A DNA stretch of 64,000 nt from an uncultured Verrucomicrobia subdivision 3 bacterium (GCA_903917705.1 CAIXBQ010000103.1:36889-100888); one strand, 5' to 3'; shown: positions 1 through 59,299, counted from the first letter of the stretch. A program made the numbers and translations. The notes: generated from the letters alone by a model not told the origin.

Positions 1-44
1 CAGCCTTGCCGGCGATTTAATCGTCTATTTATTGGACACTTCGG

Positions 45-491
45 CCGGACGGCCGCTTTTCCCATGCTTCCGAAGGTCATTTCCTATTTAGCGGGTGGCT
101 CCGAACGAAGGAAATAGTCTCCGCTATCCAGGAAATGACCTTCGGAAGCAGGAAATAGTCGTTTCCTGGATAGCGGATGGCTTCGAACGAACGAAATGGT
201 CATTTCCTAGATTGCGGACGCCTTCGAATGAATGAAATAGCCATTCAAATTATTTGAACGACATTTTCAATACAGAAATAGTCTCCCCAATTTTTTGAAC
301 GACCTTTTCACGCTTGCAATGCCCTCCGCTAATTTAGCGGGTCGTATTGTATGCTTACAATGGCCTCCGCAATTCCAGCTGGTGGCTTTGTAAGCTTACA
401 AAGATCATTTCCAATTTAGCGGGTCGTATTGTAAGCGTACAATGGTAATTTCCTGTTTGGCGGATGGCATTGTAAGCATGCAATGGTCATC
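45..491. repeat. Degenerate tandem array of ~11 units of ~41 bp. Each unit has a 'TTTAGCGG(G/A)T(G/C)G'-like head, a private short palindrome and a 'GGTCATTTCC'-like tail
   Basis: Read by eye. Unit starts lie near 45, 86, 126, 167, 208, 247, 289, 330, 371, 413 and 454. Units 330-370 and 413-453 are near-identical, giving an ~82-bp higher-order period. There is a perfect palindrome TTTGTAAGCTTACAAA at 387-402 and a hairpin ATTGTA-AGCG-TACAAT at 428-443. Unit 126-166 is inverted relative to its neighbours. Confidence 0.8.
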
Positions 492-599
492 TTTTTGGCC
501 GGAACGACCCAAACAAGCGTTGGAAGGCCATGGTCTGGATTTAGGAGGACTCTGGGAAGGTTCAGGCGGACATCCCGGTTTTCCCCAGGCCGTCCGGCG

Positions 600-1256
600 T
601 CACGGAAGCGCCAAGTGGTTGGTCTCAAGTCCGGTGAGCTGGAGCAATTGGCGCAGACTGGAGGCCATGGTCGCTTGCACGCTGCCGTCGGCCAGGCCGA
701 TATTTCCTGAGTTGATGTGGCGGGTCGCCATCCAGGCGACGGGATCGTTCGTCCCGATTGACCGCAAACCCGGCCGCAGCGGCACGCCGCCAACTTGAAA
801 ATTGCTGTCGCCGGAAAGCATCAACTGCGGATTGACGTCGTTGGTCACATCCAGGCCGACGAAATAGCTGATGTTGGAATTGGAGAGTTCCGCAAAGTTG
901 GTCGCCCCAATCCGCGCCGTATCTTCCGGGCAAACCAGGATCTTCGTTAAGCTCAATTCGTTCGACATCACCTGAAAGACTTGCGCCACATTTCCGGTGG
1001 CGGCCATTTCCATCGCGCCGCCTGACTTTGTGGGAACGGCCATTGGCGACAAGTCGCTATTGTCGCCTTCCCAAATCCGGTAGGCCAGACCGATTTGTTT
1101 CAGGCAATTGGTGCAGCCGAGTTTGGAAGAACGGCGGGTGGCCTTGGACAATGCGGGAAGGAGCAGAACCGCGAGAACCATCACGATGGCGATGACCACG
1201 CCGACTTCAAACAGGGTCATCGCGGCGTTGCGTTGGGAGGAAAGGCGCGGTTGCAT
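600..1256 (-). CDS. Prepilin-type N-terminal cleavage/methylation domain protein with H-X9-DG C-terminal motif (pseudopilin-like)
   Basis: The N-terminus ..NAAMTLFEVGVVIAIVMVLAVLLLPALSKA has a hydrophobic helix with E at +5. The C-terminus RHINSGNIGLADGSV matches H-X9-DG. This family is expanded in Verrucomicrobiota/Planctomycetota. Confidence 0.8.
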   Translation of the reverse strand: MQPRLSSQRNAAMTLFEVGVVIAIVMVLAVLLLPALSKATRRSSKLGCTNCLKQIGLAYRIWEGDNSDLSPMAVPTKSGGAMEMAATGNVAQVFQVMSNELSLTKILVCPEDTARIGATNFAELSNSNISYFVGLDVTNDVNPQLMLSGDSNFQVGGVPLRPGLRSIGTNDPVAWMATRHINSGNIGLADGSVQATMASSLRQLLQLTGLETNHLALP

Positions 1257-1267
1257 GACCGCGGGAG

Positions 1268-1828
1268 TTATTTCGCCATGTTCAGCGCGTAAACGATCAA
1301 ACCGATGATGACGACGCCGACGACAATGCCGATCACCAGGAAAACGCGGTTGGTCTTGTTGGACTTTTTGGAAAAGGCGGCGTTGGTGTCGAAGCCGCCC
1401 ACGCGGGTGCCGCTTTCCTCGAGATCGCTCATCTTGACGCCGCGCGACATGACCATGGTTGCATCCACCGGACTTTTCCGGGGGGCGGGCGGCGGCGGGG
1501 CGGACGGGGCGGACGCGACCGGCGCCGGCGCCGCGACGGGCTTGCCGTCGTCTATCTTCAGTTCCACCTGGCCGAAGCGCAGGGTCTGGCCGGGCTTGAG
1601 GACGATCTCGGTAAACTTTTCGCCGTTGAGATACGAGCCGTTTGTCGAATTGAGATCCTTGATGACGATCTCAGTGCCGCGCAGGATGATCTCGGCGTGA
1701 TGGCTGGAAACCGACGGGTCGGGAATCTGAAAGGTGTTATCCTCCACCCGGCCAACCGTCGTGCGCTCTACGTTCAGCTCGAACGTGCGACCGGTCATGC
1801 CCTGGTTCAGGATAACAAGTTTGGCCAT
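1268..1828 (-). CDS. FHA-domain protein with Pro/Ala-rich linker and C-terminal transmembrane anchor
   Basis: FHA signature TTVGRVEDNTFQIPDPSVSSHHAEI...DLNSTNGSYLNGEK, linker APAPVASAPSAPPPPAP, and C-terminal helix VFLVIGIVVGVVIIGLIVYAL. Confidence 0.8.
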   Translation of the reverse strand: MAKLVILNQGMTGRTFELNVERTTVGRVEDNTFQIPDPSVSSHHAEIILRGTEIVIKDLNSTNGSYLNGEKFTEIVLKPGQTLRFGQVELKIDDGKPVAAPAPVASAPSAPPPPAPRKSPVDATMVMSRGVKMSDLEESGTRVGGFDTNAAFSKKSNKTNRVFLVIGIVVGVVIIGLIVYALNMAK

Positions 1829-1894
1829 AGATTGTTTCGGCAGATTATGAGCGCGGCGGCTTTCAAGTCAAACGCAAATCTGAGGCGGGGTGTT

Positions 1895-3055
1895 TCATCC
1901 GCGCTTTTCGATTAGCTGCCGGAATTCCGCAAACAGCGGCGTGGAATCGTGCGGTCCGGGCGAGGCTTCGGGATGGTATTGCACGCAGAACACCGGTTTG
2001 GTCTTGTGCCGCAATCCTTCGACGGTCTGGTCATTCAAATTGAGGCGGTTCACCGCCACGTCGGCCGGCAGGCTGTCCGGGTCCACGGCGAAACCGTGGT
2101 TTTGCGAGGTGATCTCCACCCGGCCGGATTCCAGGTCCTTCACCGGCTGGTTGCCGCCGCGATGGCCGAATTTCAGCTTGAAGGTTTTCCCGCCGAGCGC
2201 CTGGCCGAGAATCTGGTGGCCGAGACAAATCCCGAAAATCGGGATGCCGCTGTCGAGCAGCGTCTTCACTTCGCGGACGATGTAATCGAGCGCCGCCGGG
2301 TCGCCGGGGCCGTTCGAGAGGAAAATCCCCGCCGGCTTGTGCTTGAGCGCGTCGGCGGCGGTGGCGGTGGCCGGCAGGACCTGCGTCGCGAAACCGTGCT
2401 GCCGCAGCCGGCGCAGGATATTGTACTTCATCCCGTAGTCGAACGCGACAATCGGGATGTCCGCCGGCGGCAGCGGCTGGCGCATGTTGCGCGCGTCGGC
2501 AAATTTGATGCCGCGGACCAGGTCGAACGCCGCGCTCTGCTCGTCCTTTTCGTCCCAGCGGAACGCCTTTTTATGTGTGACTTCCTTGACGTAGTCCACG
2601 CCGACGAAGACGAATTCCTGCGCCCGCTTGACCGCCTCGGCTTCGGTGATCTTTTCGGTGGAAATGAAGCCGTTCAGCGCGCCGCGCACCCGGAGTTTCT
2701 TGGTCAAGGCGCGGGTGTCAATGCCCTGGATGCCGGGGATCCCGTTCTTCTCCAGGTATTCCGCCAGGGAAGCGTCCGCGCGCCAGTTGCTCACGACCGG
2801 CGAGAGTTCGCGGATGACAAAGCCCGCCGCGTGCGGCCGCCACGATTCCACGTCCTGCGAATTGACCCCGTAGTTGCCGATGAGCGGATAGGTCATCGTG
2901 ACAATCTGGCCCTTGTAGGACGGGTCGGTGAGGATTTCCTGGTAGCCCGTCATGGAAGTGTTGAAACATACCTCGCCGCAGGCTGACGCTTTCGCGCCAA
3001 AACCCGTGCCGTGGAAAATGGAACCGTCTTCAAGGGCCAGAATCGCTTTCATCAA
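1895..3055 (-). CDS. carA: Carbamoyl-phosphate synthase small subunit (glutamine amidotransferase)
   Basis: Full-length family pattern: N-terminus MKAILALEDGSIFHGTGFGA; GATase triad region GICLGHQIL, FGHRGGNQPV and QYHPEASPGPHD. Confidence 0.93.
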   Translation of the reverse strand: MMKAILALEDGSIFHGTGFGAKASACGEVCFNTSMTGYQEILTDPSYKGQIVTMTYPLIGNYGVNSQDVESWRPHAAGFVIRELSPVVSNWRADASLAEYLEKNGIPGIQGIDTRALTKKLRVRGALNGFISTEKITEAEAVKRAQEFVFVGVDYVKEVTHKKAFRWDEKDEQSAAFDLVRGIKFADARNMRQPLPPADIPIVAFDYGMKYNILRRLRQHGFATQVLPATATAADALKHKPAGIFLSNGPGDPAALDYIVREVKTLLDSGIPIFGICLGHQILGQALGGKTFKLKFGHRGGNQPVKDLESGRVEITSQNHGFAVDPDSLPADVAVNRLNLNDQTVEGLRHKTKPVFCVQYHPEASPGPHDSTPLFAEFRQLIEKRG

Positions 3056-3106
3056 AATCGCGCTATACTAAAGTCGCGGCGCGGCCGGTTCAAGTTTTAA
3101 CAAAAC

Positions 3107-3131
3107 GGGCGCGGCAGTTTTTGCCGCGCCC
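3107..3131 (-). terminator. Candidate rho-independent terminator after the thioredoxin-like gene
   Basis: Perfect 10-bp stem GGGCGCGGCA / TGCCGCGCCC with a 5-nt loop. On the minus strand it is followed by GTTTTGTTAAAAC. It lies 25 nt downstream of the stop at 3156. Confidence 0.55.
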
Positions 3132-3155
3132 GCACTCCGGCGAACCAGGAGAATC

Positions 3156-3593
3156 TTATTTTTTGAACCCTTCCAGCTTGGCGATGAACGCCTTCGGGCC
3201 GCCTTCCGCATAACCGACCTGCCGGCCGATTTCCTTGCCGTTTTTGTCCAGCACGATCAATGTCGGGAAGCCGCTGATTTTATATTGTTTTTTCAACGCG
3301 GCGTTGGCCGTTTTCAGATCGGCGTCCTGGACTTTCTTGTGCGGATAATCCAGCTCCACCAGCACGACGTTTTTGGCGGCATATTCCTGGAACTCGGGTG
3401 TGTCGAGGACCTCCTTGCGGAACTTGATGCACCAGCCGCACCAGTCCGAGCCGGTGAAATCCATGAGCACGATTTTGTTTTCGGATTTCGCCTGTGCCTG
3501 GGCTTTGGGCAGGTCGGTTAGCCAGGCGGCTTCCGCCGCGTTCACCTGCCAACAAATCGTGGCAGCCACCATTGCAAGGAGCAGTTTTTTCAT
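3156..3593 (-). CDS. Secreted thioredoxin-fold protein (CxxC)
   Basis: Signal peptide MKKLLLAMVAATICWQVNAAEA, redox motif DWCGWCIKF, and GFPTLIVLDKNGKE typical of the thioredoxin fold. Confidence 0.8.
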   Translation of the reverse strand: MKKLLLAMVAATICWQVNAAEAAWLTDLPKAQAQAKSENKIVLMDFTGSDWCGWCIKFRKEVLDTPEFQEYAAKNVVLVELDYPHKKVQDADLKTANAALKKQYKISGFPTLIVLDKNGKEIGRQVGYAEGGPKAFIAKLEGFKK

Positions 3594-3619
3594 AATTGTA
3601 TATAATCCGGCGTCGGAGT

Positions 3620-4996
3620 TTAGACCGCCACCTGGTCCGGTCGTTCAACCAAAACACTTTTACCGGCGACGATCGTGGCCGCCGCCTTGCCCTTGAGCGT
3701 CCAGCCGAAAAACGGATTGTTCTTCGATTTGCTCGCCGAATCGTCGCGGTTGAATACCCATTCCTGTTCCGGGTCAAACACCGTCACATCGGCGTCCGCG
3801 CCGATGCCCAGCGTTCCTTTGTTCAGCTTCAGCAGTCGCGCGGGGTTGATGGTGAACTTCGCGATCATGTCCGTGAGCGAGATCCGTTTCGTGTGGACGA
3901 GTTGCATGAGCGCCAGCGCCAGCTCCGTCTCCAGCCCGGTGATGCCGAACGGGGCATAATCAAATTCGACCTCCTTTTCGAAATCGCAGTGGGGCGCGTG
4001 GTCGCTGCACAAAATATCAATCGTGCCGTCGGCCAGGCCTTCGAGGATCGCCTCGCGGTCCCGGGCTGAGCGGAGCGGGGGATTCATTTTGAAGTTGGTG
4101 TCATATTGCGGCCAGGCCGGCAGCTTGCCGGGTTGCGATTTCGCCAGCAGCTTGCCGTCGTTACTCCAGAATTTATCGCTGCCGGCCACCGCTGCGTCGG
4201 TCAGGGTGAAATGGTGCGGGCAAGCTTCGCCGGAAATGGGGACGCCGCGTTTCTTAGCCGCCCGGATCAGGGCGACGCTGCCGGCCGCGCTGAGGTGCTG
4301 GCAGTGGATTTTCGCGCCGGTCAGTTCTGCCAGCAGGATGTTCCGCGCCACGATCATTTCCTCGCCCGCCGCCGGCCAGCCGCGCAGGCCGAGCGCCGTG
4401 CTCCAATAGCCCTCGTGCATCACGCCGTCGGTCACGAATGAATAATCCTGGCAATGGTCGAACAGGGGCAGGTCGAACATCTTCGCGTATTCGCAGGCGC
4501 GGCGCATGAGGTCGTTGTTCTGCACGCAATGGCCGTCGTCGGTGATGGCCACGACGCCGGCCTTTTTCAAGCCGCCGATCGGCGCCATCTCCTCGCCGGC
4601 GATGCCCTTGGTGATCGCGCCCGTCACAAACACGTTTACGATGCCCTCGCGGGCGGCGCGTTCGTGGATGAGCGCGACGGTGCCGGCATTGTCAATCGCC
4701 GGCGCCGTGTTGGGCATGCAGACGACGGAGGTGAATCCGCCGCGGGCGGCGGCGGCGGTGCCGCTGGCGATGGTTTCTTTCGCGGTTTGGCCGGGTTCGC
4801 GCAGATGGACATGCAAGTCAATGAGGCCGGGCGAAACGATTTTCCCTTTTGCGTCAAGCCGCTCCGCGCCGGTGGGGGCGGGCAGTTTGGCGCCGATGGC
4901 GGAGATTTTGCCGTCGAGGATCAGGACGTCGGCAATGGCATCAAATTTGTTGGCGGGATCAATCACGCGACCGCCGGTGAGAAGCAGCGAATTCAT
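3620..4996 (-). CDS. pyrC: Dihydroorotase
   Basis: Start taken at MNSLLLTGGRVIDP (the ORF track extends to 5032). Metal ligand motifs DLHVHLREPG and CSDHAPH; amidohydrolase length. Confidence 0.9.
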   Translation of the reverse strand: MNSLLLTGGRVIDPANKFDAIADVLILDGKISAIGAKLPAPTGAERLDAKGKIVSPGLIDLHVHLREPGQTAKETIASGTAAAARGGFTSVVCMPNTAPAIDNAGTVALIHERAAREGIVNVFVTGAITKGIAGEEMAPIGGLKKAGVVAITDDGHCVQNNDLMRRACEYAKMFDLPLFDHCQDYSFVTDGVMHEGYWSTALGLRGWPAAGEEMIVARNILLAELTGAKIHCQHLSAAGSVALIRAAKKRGVPISGEACPHHFTLTDAAVAGSDKFWSNDGKLLAKSQPGKLPAWPQYDTNFKMNPPLRSARDREAILEGLADGTIDILCSDHAPHCDFEKEVEFDYAPFGITGLETELALALMQLVHTKRISLTDMIAKFTINPARLLKLNKGTLGIGADADVTVFDPEQEWVFNRDDSASKSKNNPFFGWTLKGKAAATIVAGKSVLVERPDQVAV

Positions 4997-5058: not shown

Positions 5059-5132
5059 GCGGGTGTAGTTCAATGGTAGAACGGAAGCCTTCCAAGCTTC
5101 ATACGTGGGTTCGATTCCCATCACCCGCTCCA
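5059..5132 (+). tRNA. tRNA-Gly (anticodon UCC), CCA encoded
   Basis: Manual cloverleaf: acceptor GCGGGTG/CACCCGC, D arm GTTC-AATGGTA-GAAC, anticodon arm GAAGC-CTTCCAA-GCTTC (TCC at positions 34-36), variable ATAC, T arm GTGGG-TTCGATT-CCCAT, then T-CCA. Confidence 0.93.
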
Positions 5133-5157
5133 TTGATTATCAACGACTTGCGAAGCG

Positions 5158-5179
5158 GTGCAAGTAAAGTGCAAGTAAA
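5158..5179. repeat. 11-bp word duplicated in tandem (GTGCAAGTAAA x2)
   Basis: Read directly, 26 nt downstream of the tRNA. Confidence 0.9.
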
Positions 5180-5271
5180 TTAGGGTTTTTTGGAGGGCAC
5201 CGGATTTGCAGTCAACTGGCTCGGATTTCGACCGATTTGGACACATCATTTCGATTTTCAAGGAAGTTTTT

Positions 5272-5601
5272 TTAACCCGCCTCAGCCAAAATTTGAGCCA
5301 AACGACCAGTAAATCTAACGCCGGTTTTCGTTGGGATGGGTCGCTCGGTTTCCGGTTTGGGTGAGGGGGTATCAATGGTGGCTTTCAATCCGGTTTTGGC
5401 GTTACGCCATTGTACAAAGTCTTGCCAAAAAACAACGCCCGAGAAAGAGGGAAAACCCGGTTGTCGAAACCAGGCGCGAGCAGTGGAGTAGGAAACCCCG
5501 GTTAGCACCGCAAACTCCTTGGTGTTTAGCGCCTGATCCAAACGCCGCTTTTCAACGACTTGATCAAGGGCAACATTGAGCAGTTGCTTGTCGCGCGTCA
5601 T
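5272..5601 (-). CDS. Small helix-turn-helix DNA-binding protein (excisionase/MerR-like HTH)
   Basis: LNTKEFAVLTGVSYSTARAWFRQPGFP resembles excisionase-type HTH. The gene sits in a low-GC flank of the tRNA (5161-5220 = 27/60 GC). Confidence 0.55.
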   Translation of the reverse strand: MTRDKQLLNVALDQVVEKRRLDQALNTKEFAVLTGVSYSTARAWFRQPGFPSFSGVVFWQDFVQWRNAKTGLKATIDTPSPKPETERPIPTKTGVRFTGRLAQILAEAG

Positions 5602-19255: not shown

Positions 19256-19411
19256 AGCGGTAATCCCGGTTCGACCGGGGCAGATTAGAAAAACGGATTA
19301 GAAATGGGGCGAGGCGGCGACAGCGGCTCAAACGAGCACCCCCGGAAAAAGCATCAGACTGGAACAAGGGAAAAGCCTCATCCCATTTACGGTCAGCGGA
19401 TAGTGGGGGCC

Positions 19412-19473
19412 GGTTTTGGCGCTTTTTGGCGCGATTTGGCGTATTTTGGCGGCTTTTGGCACCCTGTTTTGGC
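19412..19473. repeat. Six T-tract iterons, G(C/G)nTTTTGGC; five are spaced exactly 10 bp apart
   Basis: TTGGC ends at 19420, 19430, 19440, 19450 and 19460, then at 19473. Confidence 0.9.
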
Positions 19474-19542
19474 GCGCGCCCGAATGGGGAAAGGCAGAAG
19501 GAAGAAGGCAGAATGTAGAAAGTGCGTGCCGCACGGGCCATC

Positions 19543-19580
19543 AATTGGCACGAATAGGAAAGGGTCAGAACCTTTACAAC
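19543..19580. repeat. Copy 1 of a ~38-bp direct repeat (AATTGGCRCGAATRGGAAAGGGTCAG..TTTAC)
   Basis: Matches 19771-19810 with a few substitutions. Confidence 0.8.
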
Positions 19581-19770
19581 TCCCCGGGTAAAAACTTTAT
19601 CGCTACCGTTTTCTTTACCACCCCAAGGCTCATCTTTTGTAAGTGCTTGATAGAGGTTAAAAAACTTTACCTTTTCTTTACCACTTTCATTTTTTGAGGG
19701 GTGGTAAAGCGGAAGGGTCGCGCGACGAAAGCGAAGGAGGCGAAGCGGAAAAGCAGACACAAATTGCCCG

Positions 19771-19810
19771 AATTGGCGCGAATGGGAAAGGGTCAGGGAT
19801 TTTACCAACA
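19771..19810. repeat. Copy 2 of the ~38-bp direct repeat
   Basis: AATTGGCGCGAATGGGAAAGGGTCAGGGATTTTACCAACA versus AATTGGCACGAATAGGAAAGGGTCAGAACCTTTACAAC. Confidence 0.8.
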
Positions 19811-19927
19811 ACTGGAGCAGGTTTTGCAAGTGGTTGATGGAATTTTCAAAATTTGACCGTTTCTTGACCCTGGCGAGGCATTTTTTGCACGGTCCGGTTT
19901 TCAGGAGGGGGTGGTGGCCGCGAAGAT

Positions 19928-19962
19928 GACATTTCGTGACATTTCGTGACATTTCGTGACAT
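19928..19962. repeat. 10-bp word GACATTTCGT x3 plus a partial fourth copy
   Basis: Units at 19928-37, 19938-47 and 19948-57, followed by GACAT. Confidence 0.95.
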
Positions 19963-20271
19963 GAATTTGAATTTTGCAACGCCAAGCGCATAGCCGGGAT
20001 GCAAAATTCATCGCCAAGACGCCAGGTGGAACCGGAGACTACGGACGTCAGACCACCGACCGGCGGGTGGCGATCCACGACGGGGCGACACCGGTTGGCA
20101 GACCGGTTAGATGCTGGCGGCACGGTAACCATGCGATATTATGGTCCGATGTTTCGGCGGATGCAAGAAAAATATCTGTACAATAATAATATCATACAAA
20201 CATAGTTGTTTTCATAATGCGGCAGCGTGAGCCTCCGAGGGCGGCCATGTGATTTTGAAAGGGGCGGCATA

Positions 20272-21072
20272 TCAACTCCATTTCCGGCCGCGATCTTCCG
20301 GCAGGATCCGGCGCAGGGTATAAATATCCGACTTCATCAACTCCTCGCGCAAGGCGGCGAGATTTTGCCAGGGATCCCACGGCGCGCTGATGAGCCGGCC
20401 GCTGAGACCATCGCTTTGGGGGGAGAGCAGCAGTTCGACGAGGCTGAGCACTTTTTCGAGTTTGGCGGAATTATCGCGCCCAAGCCGGGCGGCGGATTCA
20501 AATTCCCTGGGTCCGGCAAGGGTTTCGCCACGCGCGAGAACCTCCTCGGTCATTCTGGTGAAAATGGCGCCGGGCGCGATGGCGTTGATATCAGGCGGAC
20601 AACCTGCCCACTCGGCGGCGAGCGTTTCGACGAGGCGAACCACGCCGGTTTTGGCAACGCCGTAAGCGGCAAAATTCGGCCGCGGACTGGTCGAGCCGCC
20701 ACCCGAGAAACAAATCACTTTCGCCCGGGCGGAAGATTTTTTCAGCAACGGATAAAACGCGCGAATGGCGAAGAAAGTTCCGTCCAGATTGACCGCGAGA
20801 TTTTTGCGCCATGCGAGCGGGTCCATTTCCATGGCCGGGCCGATGGGCTCCTGGGTGCCGGCGCAGCAAATGAGCGCATCCGCATTTTCCCAGGCCGCGG
20901 AAACTTTTTTGGCGCACTCTGCCACGGCGCTCCAGTCGGAAACGTCGCACTGAAAACCAAAGCCGGCCTGCGGCGAGCGGGCGAGGCGGCAGACCTCATG
21001 GCCTTTGCCCGCGAGGGAGTCCGCGAGAAACCGGCCGATGCCGCTGCTGCTGCCGGTGAGGACGATTTTCAT
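20272..21072 (-). CDS. Short-chain dehydrogenase/reductase (classical SDR)
   Basis: Start taken at MKIVLTGSSSGIGRF (the ORF track extends to 21234, which would overlap the upstream gene). Catalytic YGVAK. Confidence 0.8.
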   Translation of the reverse strand: MKIVLTGSSSGIGRFLADSLAGKGHEVCRLARSPQAGFGFQCDVSDWSAVAECAKKVSAAWENADALICCAGTQEPIGPAMEMDPLAWRKNLAVNLDGTFFAIRAFYPLLKKSSARAKVICFSGGGSTSPRPNFAAYGVAKTGVVRLVETLAAEWAGCPPDINAIAPGAIFTRMTEEVLARGETLAGPREFESAARLGRDNSAKLEKVLSLVELLLSPQSDGLSGRLISAPWDPWQNLAALREELMKSDIYTLRRILPEDRGRKWS

Positions 21073-21082
21073 AAGGCAAAGC

Positions 21083-21161
21083 GGAAAGTGGAAAGTGGAA
21101 ACCGGCGACGGGAGCACCAAGGGAAAGACCGGTTCCCGAGGTCTGATGTCCGAGGTCCGAT
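21083..21161. repeat. Intergenic stuttered words (GGAAAGT x2 plus GGAAAC; CCGAGGTCTGAT / CCGAGGTCCGAT)
   Basis: Read directly in the 91-nt spacer between two minus-strand genes. Confidence 0.8.
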
Positions 21162-21163
21162 CT

Positions 21164-22138
21164 TCATGTGCGTGTTTCGTAGACCCATTGGTTTTGCTGC
21201 AGCCATTGGAGCGTGCGGCCGATGCCCTGTTCAATCGTCAGGGACGGTTTCCAGCCGGTGCCGCGGATTTTCCGGGTATCGAGGAAGATGAACGGGTTGT
21301 CGCCGACCCAGCCGCGGCTGCCGCCGGTGTATTCCAGTTTCGGCTGCAAACCCAGCGCGCCGCAGAGATAGCCGATGGACTGGTTGACCTGGACGTATTC
21401 GTTGGTGCCGAGATTGTAAATTTCCGCGCCATGCCGGGCGTTTTTGGCCGTCCCGAGGCCCATGACATGGAGCATGGCGCTGACACAGTCCTGAACGTAG
21501 AGATAACTTTTCCGCTGCGAACCGTCGCCGAGCACCTGCAGGCGGCCGGGATGTTCGAGGAGCTGCCGGTAGAAATCAAAAACGTGGCCGTGCGTGTAGC
21601 GCTCGCCGAGGATGGAAACGAACCGGAAAATGTAGCCCTCGAATTTGAAGCCTTCGCAGTAGGATGAGATCATGCCCTCGCCGGCCAGCTTGGAGGCGGC
21701 GTAAAGCGAGGTCTGCACGGGAAACGGCGCGACTTCCGGCGTGGGAATGGTTTCCGCCTCGCCATAAACGCTGCCCGTGGAGGAAAAGGCGATGCGCCGG
21801 ATGCCGTTGGCGCGCATGGCTTCGAGCACGTGGAAGGTGGCGACGGTGTTCTGCTGCAGGTCTTTGGAGGGATGGTCGAGGCCAAAACGGACGTCGGCGT
21901 TCGCGGCCAGATGGAACACGGTGTCGCAGCCGGCCATGGCCTTCGTCAGGGCGGGCAGATCGAGATTGTCGCCTTCGACCAGCTGGAAACGGTCGTGGCC
22001 CAGCGCGCCGGCCAGGAATTTTTGCCGGCCGGTGGAAAAGTTATCCCAGCCGGTGACGGATTTGCCGTCGGCCAGCAGGCGGTCAACCAGATTGCTGCCG
22101 ATAAAACCCGCCGCGCCGGTGACAAAAATTCGTTGCAT
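21164..22138 (-). CDS. NAD-dependent nucleotide-sugar epimerase/dehydratase (extended SDR)
   Basis: VTGAAGFIGSNLVDRL and the catalytic YAASKLAGE. Confidence 0.8.
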   Translation of the reverse strand: MQRIFVTGAAGFIGSNLVDRLLADGKSVTGWDNFSTGRQKFLAGALGHDRFQLVEGDNLDLPALTKAMAGCDTVFHLAANADVRFGLDHPSKDLQQNTVATFHVLEAMRANGIRRIAFSSTGSVYGEAETIPTPEVAPFPVQTSLYAASKLAGEGMISSYCEGFKFEGYIFRFVSILGERYTHGHVFDFYRQLLEHPGRLQVLGDGSQRKSYLYVQDCVSAMLHVMGLGTAKNARHGAEIYNLGTNEYVQVNQSIGYLCGALGLQPKLEYTGGSRGWVGDNPFIFLDTRKIRGTGWKPSLTIEQGIGRTLQWLQQNQWVYETRT

Positions 22139-27795: not shown

Positions 27796-27946
27796 AAACA
27801 GAGGTCAGAGATCAGCGGTCAGAGGTCAGACCGCAAGACTACGGACTACGGACCAAATCCGGAATGCGAAAAGCGAAAAGCGGAAGTTAAACACCAAGGC
27901 ACCAAGCATTTCTTAGCCACAGATGGGCATAGATGAAACACGGATT
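27796..27946. repeat. Chain of stuttered words in a convergent spacer
   Basis: Words: GAGGTCAGAG..GGTCAGAGGTCAGA (27796-27830), GACTACG x2 (27837-50), GCGAAAA x2 (27866-79), CACCAAGG/CACCAAGC (27892-27907), and TTAGCCACAGATGGGCATAGATGAAACACGGATT (27913-27946). Confidence 0.9.
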
Positions 27947-38444: not shown

Positions 38445-38480
38445 GGAAAAGGGGCAAAGCGAAAATCGGAAATATAAAGA

Positions 38481-38630
38481 GTTGGCAGTCGTCAGTTGGC
38501 AGTTGGCAGCAAATGCGGGACCAACGGACCGCGGACCGGGACCAAGACCTGAAGGGGGCAAAGGGGAAAGTGGAAAGGGGGCGTGCGAAGAGGGCGGGAG
38601 GCAGGAGGCAGGAGTTAGGAGTTTGGAGCG
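38481..38630. repeat. Chain of stuttered words in a convergent spacer
   Basis: GTTGGCAGTCGTCAGTTGGCAGTTGGCAGC; GGGACCAACGGACCGCGGACCGGGACCAAGACC; GGGGAAAGTGGAAAGGGG; GGAGGCAGGAGGCAGGAGTTAGGAGTTTGGAG. Confidence 0.85.
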
Positions 38631-39906: not shown

Positions 39907-39940
39907 AAACAGAGGTCAGAGATCGGAGGTCAGAGGTCAG
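39907..39940. repeat. Second copy of the GAGGTCAGAG module (about 32/35 identical to 27796-27830)
   Basis: AAACAGAGGTCAGAGATCGGAGGTCAGAGGTCAG, preceded by TTAGTCACAGATGGCTACA, a partial CACAGATG module. Confidence 0.9.
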
Positions 39941-40036
39941 CAAACCATGAAAGCGGAAAGTGTGTGCCACACGGGCAACCCCTAAAACACGAAAGCAGAA
40001 ATTCACTACCAAGGGGCGAAAATGCTAAGAACACGG

Positions 40037-40068
40037 ACAACTGACAACTGACGACTGACGACTGACGG
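40037..40068. repeat. 7-bp stutter ACAACTG x2, ACGACTG x2
   Basis: Read directly. Confidence 0.9.
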
Positions 40069-45049: not shown

Positions 45050-45077
45050 GTTGAAGGTTGCAAGTTGAAGGTTGCAG
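45050..45077. repeat. 14-bp word duplicated in tandem (GTTGAAGGTTGCAA / GTTGAAGGTTGCAG)
   Basis: Read directly, 10 nt after the feoB stop. Confidence 0.9.
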
Positions 45078-45078
45078 G

Positions 45079-45119
45079 TTTAGCGGTTTGGTGGCTTTGC
45101 CTTCGGATATCCGATTCCC
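45079..45119. repeat. Solitary unit resembling the 41-bp array unit of 45-491
   Basis: TTTAGCGGTTTGGTGGCTTTGCCTTCGGATATCCGATTCCC has the TTTAGCGG..GGTGGC head, an internal palindrome CGGATATCCG (45103-45112) and a TTCC tail. Confidence 0.55.
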
Positions 45120-58733: not shown

Positions 58734-58816
58734 ACCATGAAGGGCATGGAGGATATGAAGGGTTTTTAAGGGATTTTTCCAGCTTTAGGCTTCAGGTTCC
58801 TCATGTTCTTCATGGT
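58734..58816. repeat. Left hairpin of the GxxExxY cassette (ACCATGAAG...CTTCATGGT)
   Basis: Arm ACCATGAAGGGCATGGAGGATATGAAGG (58734-61) and arm CCTCATGTTCTTCATGGT (58799-816). Confidence 0.8.
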
Positions 58817-58819
58817 GGA

Positions 58820-59194
58820 TTAATTCAAGAAACTCCTCAAACCATCCTTGAGCAACCGGACGTTGAAGTTGATCAGCAAACCCTGTTTGAGTTTTGCCAG
58901 CTTGAGATAGCTGATGATCTGGGCTTCGTGGATGGGATGGACTTCATCCACGCTCTTGAGTTCCAGCAAAAGGGAATCCGCCACAACCATGTCCATGCGA
59001 TAGGCGCAGTCAATCGTCATGCCCTTGTATTCAAAAGTGAGCGGAGCCTGCCGGCGGAAGGGGGTGTTGCAAAGTTCCAGTTCCCGGCACAGGCAGGCCT
59101 CATAGGCCGACTCCAAGAGTCCGGGGCCAAGGACCTTGTGAACTTCAATGGCAGCACCGATAACCTGGGAAACCAGCGGATTATCTTTTAACAT
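58820..59194 (-). CDS. GxxExxY-family protein (PD-(D/E)XK-like fold)
   Basis: LGPGLLESAYEACL is the GxxExxY motif; 124 aa, the typical family size. Confidence 0.85.
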   Translation of the reverse strand: MLKDNPLVSQVIGAAIEVHKVLGPGLLESAYEACLCRELELCNTPFRRQAPLTFEYKGMTIDCAYRMDMVVADSLLLELKSVDEVHPIHEAQIISYLKLAKLKQGLLINFNVRLLKDGLRSFLN

Positions 59195-59206
59195 AAAACG
59201 GATTTA

Positions 59207-59299
59207 ACCATGAAGAACATGGAGGACATGAAGAAATTACCTGAGTGATTCTGGAAAGCCCGTTTTCCCTACCTTCATGTGCTTCATGCTCTTCATGGT
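59207..59299. repeat. Right hairpin of the GxxExxY cassette (27-nt arms, 24/27 complementary)
   Basis: ACCATGAAGAACATGGAGGACATGAAG (59207-33) pairs with CTTCATGTGCTTCATGCTCTTCATGGT (59273-99). Confidence 0.85.

What the first reader, a model, noticed from the sequence alone, without database searches (positions are those of the whole stretch)
45..491. Centromere-like (sopC-style) array of ~11 tandem 41-bp units, each with its own palindrome
Each unit pairs a fairly conserved frame (TTTAGCGG..GG at the head, GGTCATTTCC at the tail) with a central 12-16 nt palindrome. The palindromes differ between unit subfamilies: TTCGAA-type in units 86-246, and TGTAAGC..TACA-type in units 330-491 (for example TTTGTAAGCTTACAAA and ATTGTA-AGCG-TACAAT). 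Both arms change together, so the palindromic or hairpin character is kept while the sequence drifts. The best known analogue is F-plasmid sopC, which has 12 tandem 43-bp repeats each holding a 7-bp inverted repeat bound by SopB. Here the array sits on what looks like a chromosome, since carA, rpsB and tsf are in the same window. Possible roles are a protein-loading array, a multi-hairpin RNA, or an expanding REP-like element.
Basis: partly seen in the sequence, partly recalled or inferred. Interest (0 to 1): 0.6.

Follow-up and report, generated by a model that had tools for sequence, protein, structure and literature searches.

The report
Decayed 41-bp intergenic tandem-repeat array
About twelve 41-base repeats between two converging chromosomal genes of an uncultured verrucomicrobium are a worn copy of a small dispersed repeat family, not a plasmid-style centromere, so the finding is real but of modest interest.

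Summary
The 41-bp periodicity is real and far beyond chance. There are 11-12 units at window 46-538. The "own palindrome in every unit, arms co-varying" part does not hold: only four units (333-496) carry a 14-18 bp central palindrome, the others have at most TTCGAA, and a covariation test on 19 units is no better than shuffles.

The array fills a 682-bp gap between convergent genes: the ccsA/resB operon and an H-X9-DG pseudopilin-FHA-carA string. The closest syntenic relative has 4 bp there. No ParA/ParB, transposase or RAYT is in the window or in the gene map to its left.

A second array of the same family was found in another metagenome, in an unrelated context upstream of a DUF2975-HTH_26 operon. 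It has 9.5 head-to-tail units, 86% alike. It shares the same two unit subtypes: a (not palindromic) and b (palindromic). It has no excess folding (z -1.2 and -1.8), whereas the window array folds strongly (z -8.6 and -10.7) only because some units are inverted.

Best reading: an old, decaying copy of a lineage-restricted dispersed minisatellite, MIRU/BIME-like. The sopC-style centromere reading is not supported. How the family spreads, and whether any protein binds it, remain open.

The parts
46..250 (+). Five a-type units (46-86 partial, 87-127, 128-168, 169-209, 210-250). The head is (G/T)AT(A/T)GCGG, the centre is CTTCGAAnGAAnGAAAT(A/G)G and the tail is GTCATTTCC. The junction at 115-140 is inverted.
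   Evidence: They match the a-type consensus of array B at 21-32 of 41 positions; the null 99.9th percentile is 21. Model R1 hits at 56-85, 88-125, 137-167, 170-208 and 211-245.
251..291 (+). Strongly degenerate unit, in register with its neighbours.
   Evidence: It keeps the 41-bp register. R1 gives 10.1 bits, E=0.061. It is 66% identical to unit 292-332.
292..332 (-). Inverted unit. With the next unit it forms the head-to-head palindrome CCGCTAATTTAGCGG at 326-340.
   Evidence: The best probe is b-type on the minus strand, 25/41. R1 on the minus strand gives 23.1 bits at 298-331. Palindrome listed.
333..496 (+). Four b-type units (333, 374, 415, 456). Each has a central palindrome of the type ATTGTAAGCnTACAAT: 346-361, 386-403, 428-443, and an imperfect one at 467-484.
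   Evidence: 27-34 of 41 matches to the b-type consensus of array B. R1 gives 23.6-29.7 bits. Palindromes.
497..538 (-). Possible twelfth unit: inverted, a-like, very degenerate.
   Evidence: 21/41 to the reverse complement of the a-type consensus, which is at the null 99.9th percentile. Inverted repeat I18, 303-316 / 514-527. Weak; it may not be a unit.
64..151 (.). Long hairpin or cruciform made by two oppositely oriented tail-head junctions: arms 65-94 and 121-150, 30 nt, 90% complementary.
   Evidence: Repeat I1. It dominates the minimum-energy fold. It is the source of the sub-threshold microRNA-precursor hit in Rfam, 26.4 bits against a gathering score of 110.
11..35 (+). Terminator-like hairpin plus T-run, lying before the array. 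It is the likely end of the ccsA/resB transcript coming from the left.
   Evidence: Consensus scan only. The ccsA stop is inferred at about window -82 from the gene map.
600..1256 (-). H-X9-DG prepilin-type protein gene. Its 3' end faces the array.
   Evidence: ORF. Homologues are named 'prepilin-type processing-associated H-X9-DG protein' by JGI. Its C-terminus ...LALP matches the orthologues.

Best explanation
Window 46-538 is an old, decaying copy of a lineage-restricted family of 41-bp extragenic tandem repeats. This makes it a bacterial dispersed minisatellite, closest in behaviour to MIRU loci and to tandemly reiterated REP/BIME clusters.

The family has two unit subtypes. Both share the tail-head frame AATGGTCATTTCC-TRG-AT(N)GCGG.
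- a-type: GCGGACGCC-TTCGCACGCTTRCAATGG. It is not palindromic.
- b-type: GCGG(G/A)TGGC-ATTGTAAGCTTACAATG. Here the left half of the centre has become the complement of the right half.

Shown:
- The array occupies a spacer between convergent genes that is only 4 bp long in the nearest syntenic relative.
- The same family, with the same two subtypes, forms a second array in an unrelated context in another assembly.
- That second array is homogeneous, strictly head-to-tail and not unusually structured.
- The window copy has diverged to about 49% identity between units and contains inverted segments.

Inferred:
- A seed of at least one a unit and one b unit arrived in the spacer. The route is unknown.
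- It was amplified by replication slippage or unequal recombination.
- It was then scrambled by inversions between its own palindromic or oppositely oriented parts, and by point mutation.
- The palindromes and the strong folding are by-products of this history, not the selected feature.
- Any present-day effect is most likely incidental. Read-through transcripts from either convergent gene would fold into long hairpins (64-151, 300-490) that could stall transcription or exonucleases.
For: - Periodicity and unit content.
- Lineage-specific presence. The source contig has a 682-bp gap between ccsA and the pseudopilin gene in two assemblies. The syntenic loci L001-L003 (pseudopilin 67% identical) have a 4-bp gap and no R1 match.
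- Second array. It lies at L055:865-1122, L061:246-632 and L060:97-483, 25-30 bp upstream of the -35 hexamer of a DUF2975-HTH_26 operon. Relatives whose DUF2975 gene is 91-93% identical in DNA (L059, L065-L070) lack it.
- Subtypes are shared across arrays. Window b-units are 76-80% identical to b-units of array B, but only 61% to a-units of their own array. Window a-unit 169 is 76-78% identical to a-units of B.
- Decay. Mean pairwise identity is 49% in the window against 86% in array B.
- Structure is not conserved. RNA-fold z is -10.7 and -8.6 for the window array, but -1.8 and -1.2 for array B. Single a-type units of B fold no better than shuffles, z +0.2 to +1.1. Covariation is not significant.
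- No partition, transposase or Y1 gene among 57 window ORFs scanned against Pfam.
- No similarity to plasmids, phages, viral contigs or Rfam families.
- Contigs from five assemblies break in or next to array B, and one breaks about 70 bp from the window array. This fits an assembly-breaking repeat.
Against: - Only two loci of the family are known, and neither whole genome could be read. 'Dispersed' therefore rests on n=2.
- The collection scans used one exact pattern that matches only some junctions. It matched one site in array B, and the collections did not return the window's own locus.
- No copy-number difference between samples was seen. The gap is 682 bp in two assemblies and array B is identical in five. 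The classic minisatellite signature is therefore missing.
- The relatedness of the two host genomes is unknown. If they are distant, 76-80% identity of non-coding units would argue for constraint or active copying rather than neutrality.
- The central region shows more dyad symmetry in register than when slid: 62.6% paired against 32-45%. Some family-wide palindromic tendency therefore exists.
- Array B sits just upstream of a promoter, a position where a bound protein could matter.
Confidence: 0.6

Rival explanations
1. REP/BIME-type element. The unit, or its b-type stem-loop, would be the substrate of a REP-associated Y1 transposase (RAYT) encoded elsewhere in the genome, which copies it to new extragenic sites. 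Clusters would then arise by repeated insertion and tandem reiteration.
For: - Extragenic location, at the 3' ends of convergent genes in the window.
- Two unit subtypes in one cluster, some units in opposite orientation, and whole-unit dyads at 87-127, 128-168 and 333-373.
- The same family at two unrelated loci.
- REP clusters 'reiterated in tandem' and GTAG-type REPs in the PVC group, including Opitutus terrae with a GTGG tag variant, are described in PMC3733652.
- b-type units of array B, and window unit 374, have GTGG directly before the stem.
Against: - No GTAG or CTAC anywhere in the window array.
- The majority a-type units have no stem-loop.
- Array B is strictly head-to-tail at an exact 41-bp period. 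PMC3733652 calls head-to-tail dimers negligible among CGTC repeats, and for GTAG repeats says only that head-head dimers predominate.
- No further copy, not even a single unit, in the other 63.5 kb of the window.
- No Y1_Tnp hit among the window ORFs.
- O. terrae REP-encoded peptides indicate GC-rich, unrelated sequences.
Confidence: 0.15
2. Protein-loading array. This covers a centromere-like site in the manner of sopC, or an array of operator or nucleoid-protein sites. A DNA-binding protein would recognise the conserved 24-bp tail-head frame or the central palindrome. The 41-bp spacing, about four helical turns, would put the sites on roughly one face of the helix.
For: - Format similar to sopC: 12 direct 43-bp repeats, each with a 16-bp inverted repeat bound by SopB (PMC3177203 abstract).
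- The tail-head core is the best-kept part and occurs nowhere else in the window.
- Array B lies immediately upstream of a promoter and next to an HTH_26 gene.
Against: - No ParA/ParB or other candidate binder is shared by the two loci.
- The HTH_26/DUF2975 pair exists without the array in close relatives.
- The palindrome is absent from most units.
- The window copy has lost the core at 4 of 10 junctions.
- The array is absent at the orthologous site of the nearest relative.
- No match in 72,556 plasmid records.
Confidence: 0.08
3. Selected RNA-level element. The array would be transcribed as the shared 3' region of the convergent genes, and its hairpins would act as a bidirectional terminator or as exonuclease barriers that stabilise the upstream mRNAs, as proposed for REPs in E. 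coli.
For: - Very strong folding of both strands of the window array: z -10.7 and -8.6, with 0 of 100 shuffles as stable.
- Position between two 3' ends.
- One terminator-like hairpin inside the array on the minus strand, at 262-240.
Against: - Array B has no excess structure and lies upstream of a promoter, not at a 3' end.
- No compensatory changes.
- Terminator-like sites are not more frequent than in shuffles: 3 against 2.3.
- No Rfam family matches.
- The relative with a 4-bp gap does without the array.
Confidence: 0.1

Closest known systems
MIRU-type bacterial minisatellites. MIRUs are mycobacterial interspersed repetitive units: 46-101 bp tandem repeats at 41 loci of M. tuberculosis H37Rv (PMC3914561).
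   Same: Head-to-tail arrays of a unit of roughly 40-100 bp. Intergenic location. The same unit family at more than one locus. Presence or absence differs between related genomes. No linked gene is known.
   Different: The sequence is unrelated and the phylum is different. Only two loci are known here. No copy-number variation has been seen yet. Some units are palindromic or inverted. There is no sign of the small overlapping ORFs described for MIRUs (that last point is from my own knowledge, not checked in a paper).
REP clusters / BIMEs of proteobacteria and GTAG-tagged REPs of the PVC group (PMC3733652; PMC2817692 abstract).
   Same: Extragenic location, often between convergent genes. Unit size of about 35-40 bp. 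Two unit types within one cluster. Partial dyad symmetry. Clusters can be tandemly reiterated.
   Different: There is no GTAG or CGTC tag. Most units lack a stem-loop. The period is an exact 41 bp and array B is entirely head-to-tail, rather than alternating in orientation. Local density is low. No RAYT has been seen.
sopC centromere of plasmid F: 12 direct 43-bp repeats, each with a 16-bp inverted repeat bound by SopB (PMC3177203 abstract).
   Same: Number of units (11-12) and unit length (41 against 43 bp). Some units have a 14-18 bp inverted repeat.
   Different: The setting is chromosomal. There is no sopA/sopB-type operon. The inverted repeat is neither present in all units nor conserved. 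Units are only 49% alike. The array is absent from the nearest relative, and a second copy sits in an unrelated context.

Membership tests
sopC-type partition site (ParB/SopB centromere) | Direct tandem repeats of about 43 bp | tested here: met
   Period of 41 bp, 11-12 units.
sopC-type partition site (ParB/SopB centromere) | Every repeat carries the same 16-bp inverted-repeat binding motif | tested here: not met
   Central palindromes occur only in units 333-496. a-type units have none. The pairing and covariation test is not significant.
sopC-type partition site (ParB/SopB centromere) | Adjacent partition operon (ParA-type ATPase plus ParB-type binder) | tested here: not met
   The neighbours are ccsA/resB on one side and pseudopilin, FHA, carA, thioredoxin and pyrC on the other. 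There is no ParA/ParB Pfam hit in the 57 window ORFs scanned.
sopC-type partition site (ParB/SopB centromere) | Specific binding by the partition protein | not testable with these tools
   This needs EMSA, ChIP or DAP-seq.
REP / BIME (RAYT-associated extragenic palindromes) | Each element is a 20-40 bp imperfect palindrome (stem 5-13 bp) | tested here: not met
   b-type units have an 8-9 bp stem. a-type units, the majority in array B, fold no better than shuffles, z +0.2 to +1.1.
REP / BIME (RAYT-associated extragenic palindromes) | Conserved unpaired GTAG (or CGTC) tag at one end of the stem | tested here: not met
   No GTAG or CTAC in 46-537. GACG occurs only at 48 and 217. GTGG precedes the stem in units B2, B6 and w374, which is a lead only.
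REP / BIME (RAYT-associated extragenic palindromes) | Many dispersed copies per genome, including singletons and inverted pairs | tested here: inconclusive
   No other unit in 63.5 kb of the window. One further array was found elsewhere. The whole genomes could not be read.
REP / BIME (RAYT-associated extragenic palindromes) | A Y1 (RAYT) transposase gene in the genome, usually flanked by its REPs | tested here: inconclusive
   None among the window ORFs. The rest of the genome is unavailable.
Dispersed bacterial minisatellite (MIRU-like) | Head-to-tail tandem array of a 40-100 bp unit in intergenic DNA | tested here: met
Dispersed bacterial minisatellite (MIRU-like) | Same unit family at several unlinked loci | tested here: met
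   Two loci in unrelated gene contexts share the a and b subtypes. The sample size is only 2.
Dispersed bacterial minisatellite (MIRU-like) | Copy number varies between strains | tested here: inconclusive
   The 682-bp gap is the same in two assemblies. Array B is identical in L055 and L060-L063. Only presence or absence between relatives was seen.
CRISPR array | Repeats separated by unique spacers of similar length | tested here: not met
   The units abut each other without spacers.
Any curated RNA family (Rfam 15) | Match at or above the family's gathering score | tested here: not met
   Only a hairpin-type hit to MIR7526, 26.4 bits against 110. Nothing on array B.

The most novel reading that the evidence does not exclude
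The 41-bp family may be an actively maintained element rather than junk. It could be a new kind of REP-like substrate copied as head-to-tail arrays by an unknown enzyme. It could instead be a phased array (about four helical turns per unit) that loads a dedicated DNA-binding protein on the conserved tail-head frame in uncultured subdivision-3-type Verrucomicrobia. In either case 76-80% identity of the unit subtypes between two genomes would reflect constraint or ongoing copying.
Probability: 0.12. Interest if true: 0.6.

Novelty: new member of a known kind. Interest (0 to 1): 0.27.

Why it matters
Intergenic repeat families are almost undescribed in uncultured Verrucomicrobia. This one shows that MIRU/BIME-like arrays exist there. 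It also shows that they appear and vanish between close relatives, and that they break short-read assemblies, which is a practical point for MAG quality.

The window also holds many heptamer-periodic intergenic repeats, so this lineage may be a good place to study how bacterial satellites arise.

As it stands there is no evidence of a cellular function. The finding mainly removes a tempting but wrong centromere analogy.

Tried and rejected
1. Source DNA left of the window. The gene map was available but the DNA was not. Further look-ups with the FHA protein and the P0243 variant gave only contigs that stop before the array.

2. Exact-pattern scans of 185,579 species genomes and of the metagenome collection with RGTCATTTCCTNKWTWGCGGR. 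There were 16 and 38 single chance matches. Neither collection returned the window's own locus, and only L055 proved to be a true relative.

3. Search of 5.8 billion predicted proteins with the conceptual translation of the array, on the idea that gene callers might have called spurious ORFs on such arrays. The unit is open in all three forward frames. No hit.

4. blastn against plasmids and phages, and three pattern scans of viral contigs. Nothing related; the three viral matches were chance.

5. Rfam on both arrays. Nothing above threshold.

6. MITE idea. A perfect 11-nt inverted pair at 44-54 / 588-598 brackets the array, but 6.6% of other 700-bp windows have such a pair and there is no target duplication. 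Treated as chance.

7. L071, a contig 100% identical to window 610-4342 that diverges at 609. It looked like an empty or alternative site. The orthologues show that the window's C-terminus is the ancestral one, so L071 carries the derived change. Its 72 novel bases match nothing held.

8. Origin or terminus idea. GC skew is positive throughout the window with no switch.

9. Relation to Opitutus terrae GTGG-tagged REPs. The REP-encoded peptides in the paper's supplement point to GC-rich, unrelated sequences.

Full report
**1. What is in the sequence**

Reading window 1-1500 and laying it out in 41-base lines shows a strictly phased array from 46 to about 538.
- Self-identity at lag 41 is 55.7% (49.5% at 82, 45.5% at 123). 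The highest value at any lag was 34.7% in 2000 shuffles and 41.9% in any other 492-bp stretch of the window.
- TRF finds period 41 at 139-245, 312-444 and 331-490, with 72-77% matches. The repeat finder gives families with 41-bp spacing.

Each unit has three parts:
- a head, (T/G)(T/A)T(A/T)GCGG(G/A)(T/C)G(G/C);
- a centre of about 18 nt;
- a tail, GGTCATTTCC.

The tail-head core TTTCC-N4-T-N-GCGG occurs five times on the + strand (80, 162, 203, 408, 449) and once on the - strand (121). It occurs nowhere else in the 64 kb.

The array is not uniform.
- Units 46-250 have a centre of the type CTTCGAAnGAAnGAAATAG.
- Units 333-496 have ATTGTAAGCnTACAAT.
- Unit 251-291 is almost unrecognisable.
- The junction at 115-140, the unit at 292-332 and perhaps 497-538 are inverted.

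Mean pairwise identity between units is only 49%.

**2. The palindrome claim**

Short perfect-arm hairpins are more frequent than in shuffles: 11 entries at 6 sites against 2.4 +/- 1.7. Only three of the six sites are unit centres (346-361, 386-403, 428-443), plus one imperfect centre at 467-484. Two are junctions where like ends meet (244-258, 326-340).

The 'TTCGAA-type palindromes' of units 87-246 are just that hexamer, followed by direct CGAA repeats.

I aligned the 11 window units with 8 units of a second array and counted pairs for the dyad about the unit centre.
- Central stem: 62.6% of cells paired against 61.4% in shuffles (146/500 shuffles reach it). The covariation score is reached by 58/500 shuffles.
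- Whole-unit dyad: 55.0% against 55.9%.
- The register does pair better than slid registers (32-45%). The consensus therefore has some dyad symmetry, but there is no evidence that the arms change together.

**3. Context**

The window starts inside an intergenic gap. The gene map of the source contig (an ENA metagenome assembly; no DNA available) shows 682 bp between the stop of a ccsA (Cytochrom_C_asm)/resB operon coming from the left and the stop of the gene at 600-1256 (-). The length is identical in two assemblies.
- The gene at 600-1256 is an H-X9-DG prepilin-type protein.
- Behind it lie an FHA-domain protein, carA, a thioredoxin-like protein and dihydroorotase.
- The rest of the window is ordinary chromosome: glycogen debranching enzyme, transaldolase, rpsB and a large polysaccharide cluster.
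- No ParA/ParB, Y1 transposase or other mobility domain was found.
- The homologues point to subdivision-3-type Verrucomicrobia.
- The array is AT-rich for this genome: 45% GC against 60%.
- GC skew shows no switch in the window.

**4. Comparison at the same locus**

The closest relatives of the pseudopilin in 5.8 billion proteins are only 67-68% identical. The best one (L001-L003) has the same gene order, carA-FHA-pseudopilin facing ccsA-resB, but only 4 bp between the two stops and no match to the unit model. The 682-bp spacer and its array are therefore specific to the window's lineage.

A contig from another study (L071) is 100% identical to window 610-4342 and then diverges at 609. Orthologue C-termini show that the window version (...LALP) is ancestral. 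L071 therefore carries a later change and is not an 'empty site'.

**5. A second member of the family**

One exact junction pattern was scanned over the species-genome collection and the metagenome collection. It gave only single chance matches, and the window's own locus was not returned by either. Comparing all fetched loci with the array singled out L055.

L055 and the longer copies L060 and L061 hold 9.5 units of the same 41-mer. All are head-to-tail and 71-98% alike, with a mean of 86%.
- This 'array B' lies 25-30 bp upstream of a TTGACA-17-TAGCAT promoter of a DUF2975-HTH_26 operon.
- None of its genes are in the window.
- Loci whose DUF2975 gene is 91-93% identical in DNA have no array.
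- Several assemblies end inside or next to array B, as expected for a repeat that breaks short-read assemblies.

Array B contains two unit types:
- a-type: GATCGCGGACGCC TTCGCACGCTTRCAATGG TCATTTCCTG
- b-type: GATCGCGGGTGGC ATTGTAAGCTTACAATGG TCATTTCCTR

They share the right half. Only in the b-type is the left half of the centre complementary to the right half.

The window's units fall into the same two types.
- Window b-units are 76-80% identical to B's b-units, but only 61% to window a-unit 169.
- Window a-unit 169 is 76-78% identical to B's a-units.

The two subtypes therefore predate the two arrays. Both arrays descend from a source that already had both types, rather than arising by local duplication of local sequence.

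**6. Structure**

The window array folds far better than shuffles on both strands: z -10.7 and -8.6. The stems are long-range pairings between oppositely oriented units, for example 65-94 with 121-150, and 300-330 with 455-490.

Array B has no inverted units and shows no excess: z -1.8 and -1.2. Its a-type units fold no better than shuffles.

Hairpin formation is thus a property of this particular scrambled copy and of the b-subtype. It is not a property of the family. Rfam has nothing for either array.

**7. Interpretation**

The evidence fits a dispersed minisatellite family.
- The arrays are head-to-tail with an exact period.
- They are extragenic.
- They occur at unrelated loci.
- They are present or absent between relatives.
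- They are homogeneous when young (array B) and decayed and rearranged when old (the window).

Amplification by slippage or unequal recombination, and inversion within the array, are inferred from this pattern and not shown.

*The sopC analogy.* sopC is 12 direct 43-bp repeats, each with a 16-bp SopB site (PMC3177203). The analogy holds only for format. The binding-site, gene-neighbourhood and replicon criteria are all not met.

*A REP/BIME relationship.* This is the most serious rival. REP clusters reiterated in tandem, and REPs in the PVC group, are documented (PMC3733652). Against it: the GTAG/CGTC tag is absent, most units have no stem, array B is purely head-to-tail, and no further copy lies in 63.5 kb.

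*A selected RNA or terminator role.* This is weakened by array B's position upstream of a promoter and by its lack of structure.

**8. Limits**

- Only two arrays are known, and neither genome could be scanned.
- The relatedness of the two hosts is unknown. They do share another 30-nt intergenic motif, which suggests kinship.
- No copy-number variation was observed.
- The scan pattern was narrow.
- The dispersal mechanism, and the possibility of a binding protein, therefore remain open. I put about 0.12 on an actively maintained or bound element.

**9. Verdict**

The centromere interpretation is not supported. The element is a new member of a known kind, a bacterial extragenic tandem-repeat family, and is of modest interest.

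Noticed in passing
window 27799-27882, 38480-38628, 39910-40067, 45050-45080, 21034-21160: Several intergenic spacers are filled with runs of different tandem heptamers: CAGAGGT, GACTACG, GCGAAAA, AGTTGGC, CGGACCG, GAAAGGG, GGCAGGA, GACGACT and others. The same CAGAGGT run occurs at two spacers. This resembles the short tandemly repeated heptamers known from cyanobacteria (from my own knowledge).
   Followed up: partly
window 19300-21700: A stretch of about 2.4 kb whose ORFs have no Pfam hit. It contains tandem 10-mers: TTTTGGCGCA x4.7 at 19414-19460 and TGACATTTCG x3.6 at 19927-19962. It looks non-coding or repeat-rich.
   Followed up: no
window 19491-19520; L060:1180-1209 and 1531-1564: A purine-rich 30-nt motif, GGCAGAAGGAAGAAGGCAGAATGTAGAA, is shared at 97% and 88% identity with the contig that carries array B. 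There it forms an inverted-repeat hairpin after genes. This is a second intergenic repeat family common to the two genomes.
   Followed up: partly
window 609/610; L071:3733-3805: A contig from another study is 100% identical to window 610-4342 and then diverges. This changes the pseudopilin C-terminus from LALP* to LAAKAVPD*. The contig ends 72 bp later, and the new sequence matches nothing held. It is a strain-level structural variant about 70 bp from the array.
   Followed up: partly
L061:25-245 (next to array B): A MITE-like element of about 190 bp with 16-bp terminal inverted repeats, GGCGTGTTTTCAAAAT. It contains CACCGGGCTGAAGCCCGGTG hairpins. It gives a weak sub-threshold Rfam hit to Acido-Lenti-1 RNA, 17.3 bits against a gathering score of 37.
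   Followed up: no
window 58745-59297: A PD-(D/E)XK nuclease family gene (PDDEXK_3, 58820-59194, minus strand) is flanked on both sides by inverted runs of 9-mers: CTTCATGnn and CATGAAGAA. It sits inside a sugar-nucleotide gene cluster and looks like a small inserted cassette.
   Followed up: no
window 5059-5601: The only tRNA gene in the window, tRNA-Gly(tcc) at 5059-5132, is followed by a 109-aa ORF (5272-5601, minus strand) without a Pfam match. This may be a remnant of an integration site.
   Followed up: no
window 44-54 and 588-598: A perfect 11-nt inverted pair, GCCGGACGGCC / GGCCGTCCGGC, brackets the whole array. 6.6% of other 700-bp windows have such a pair, so it may be chance.
   Followed up: yes
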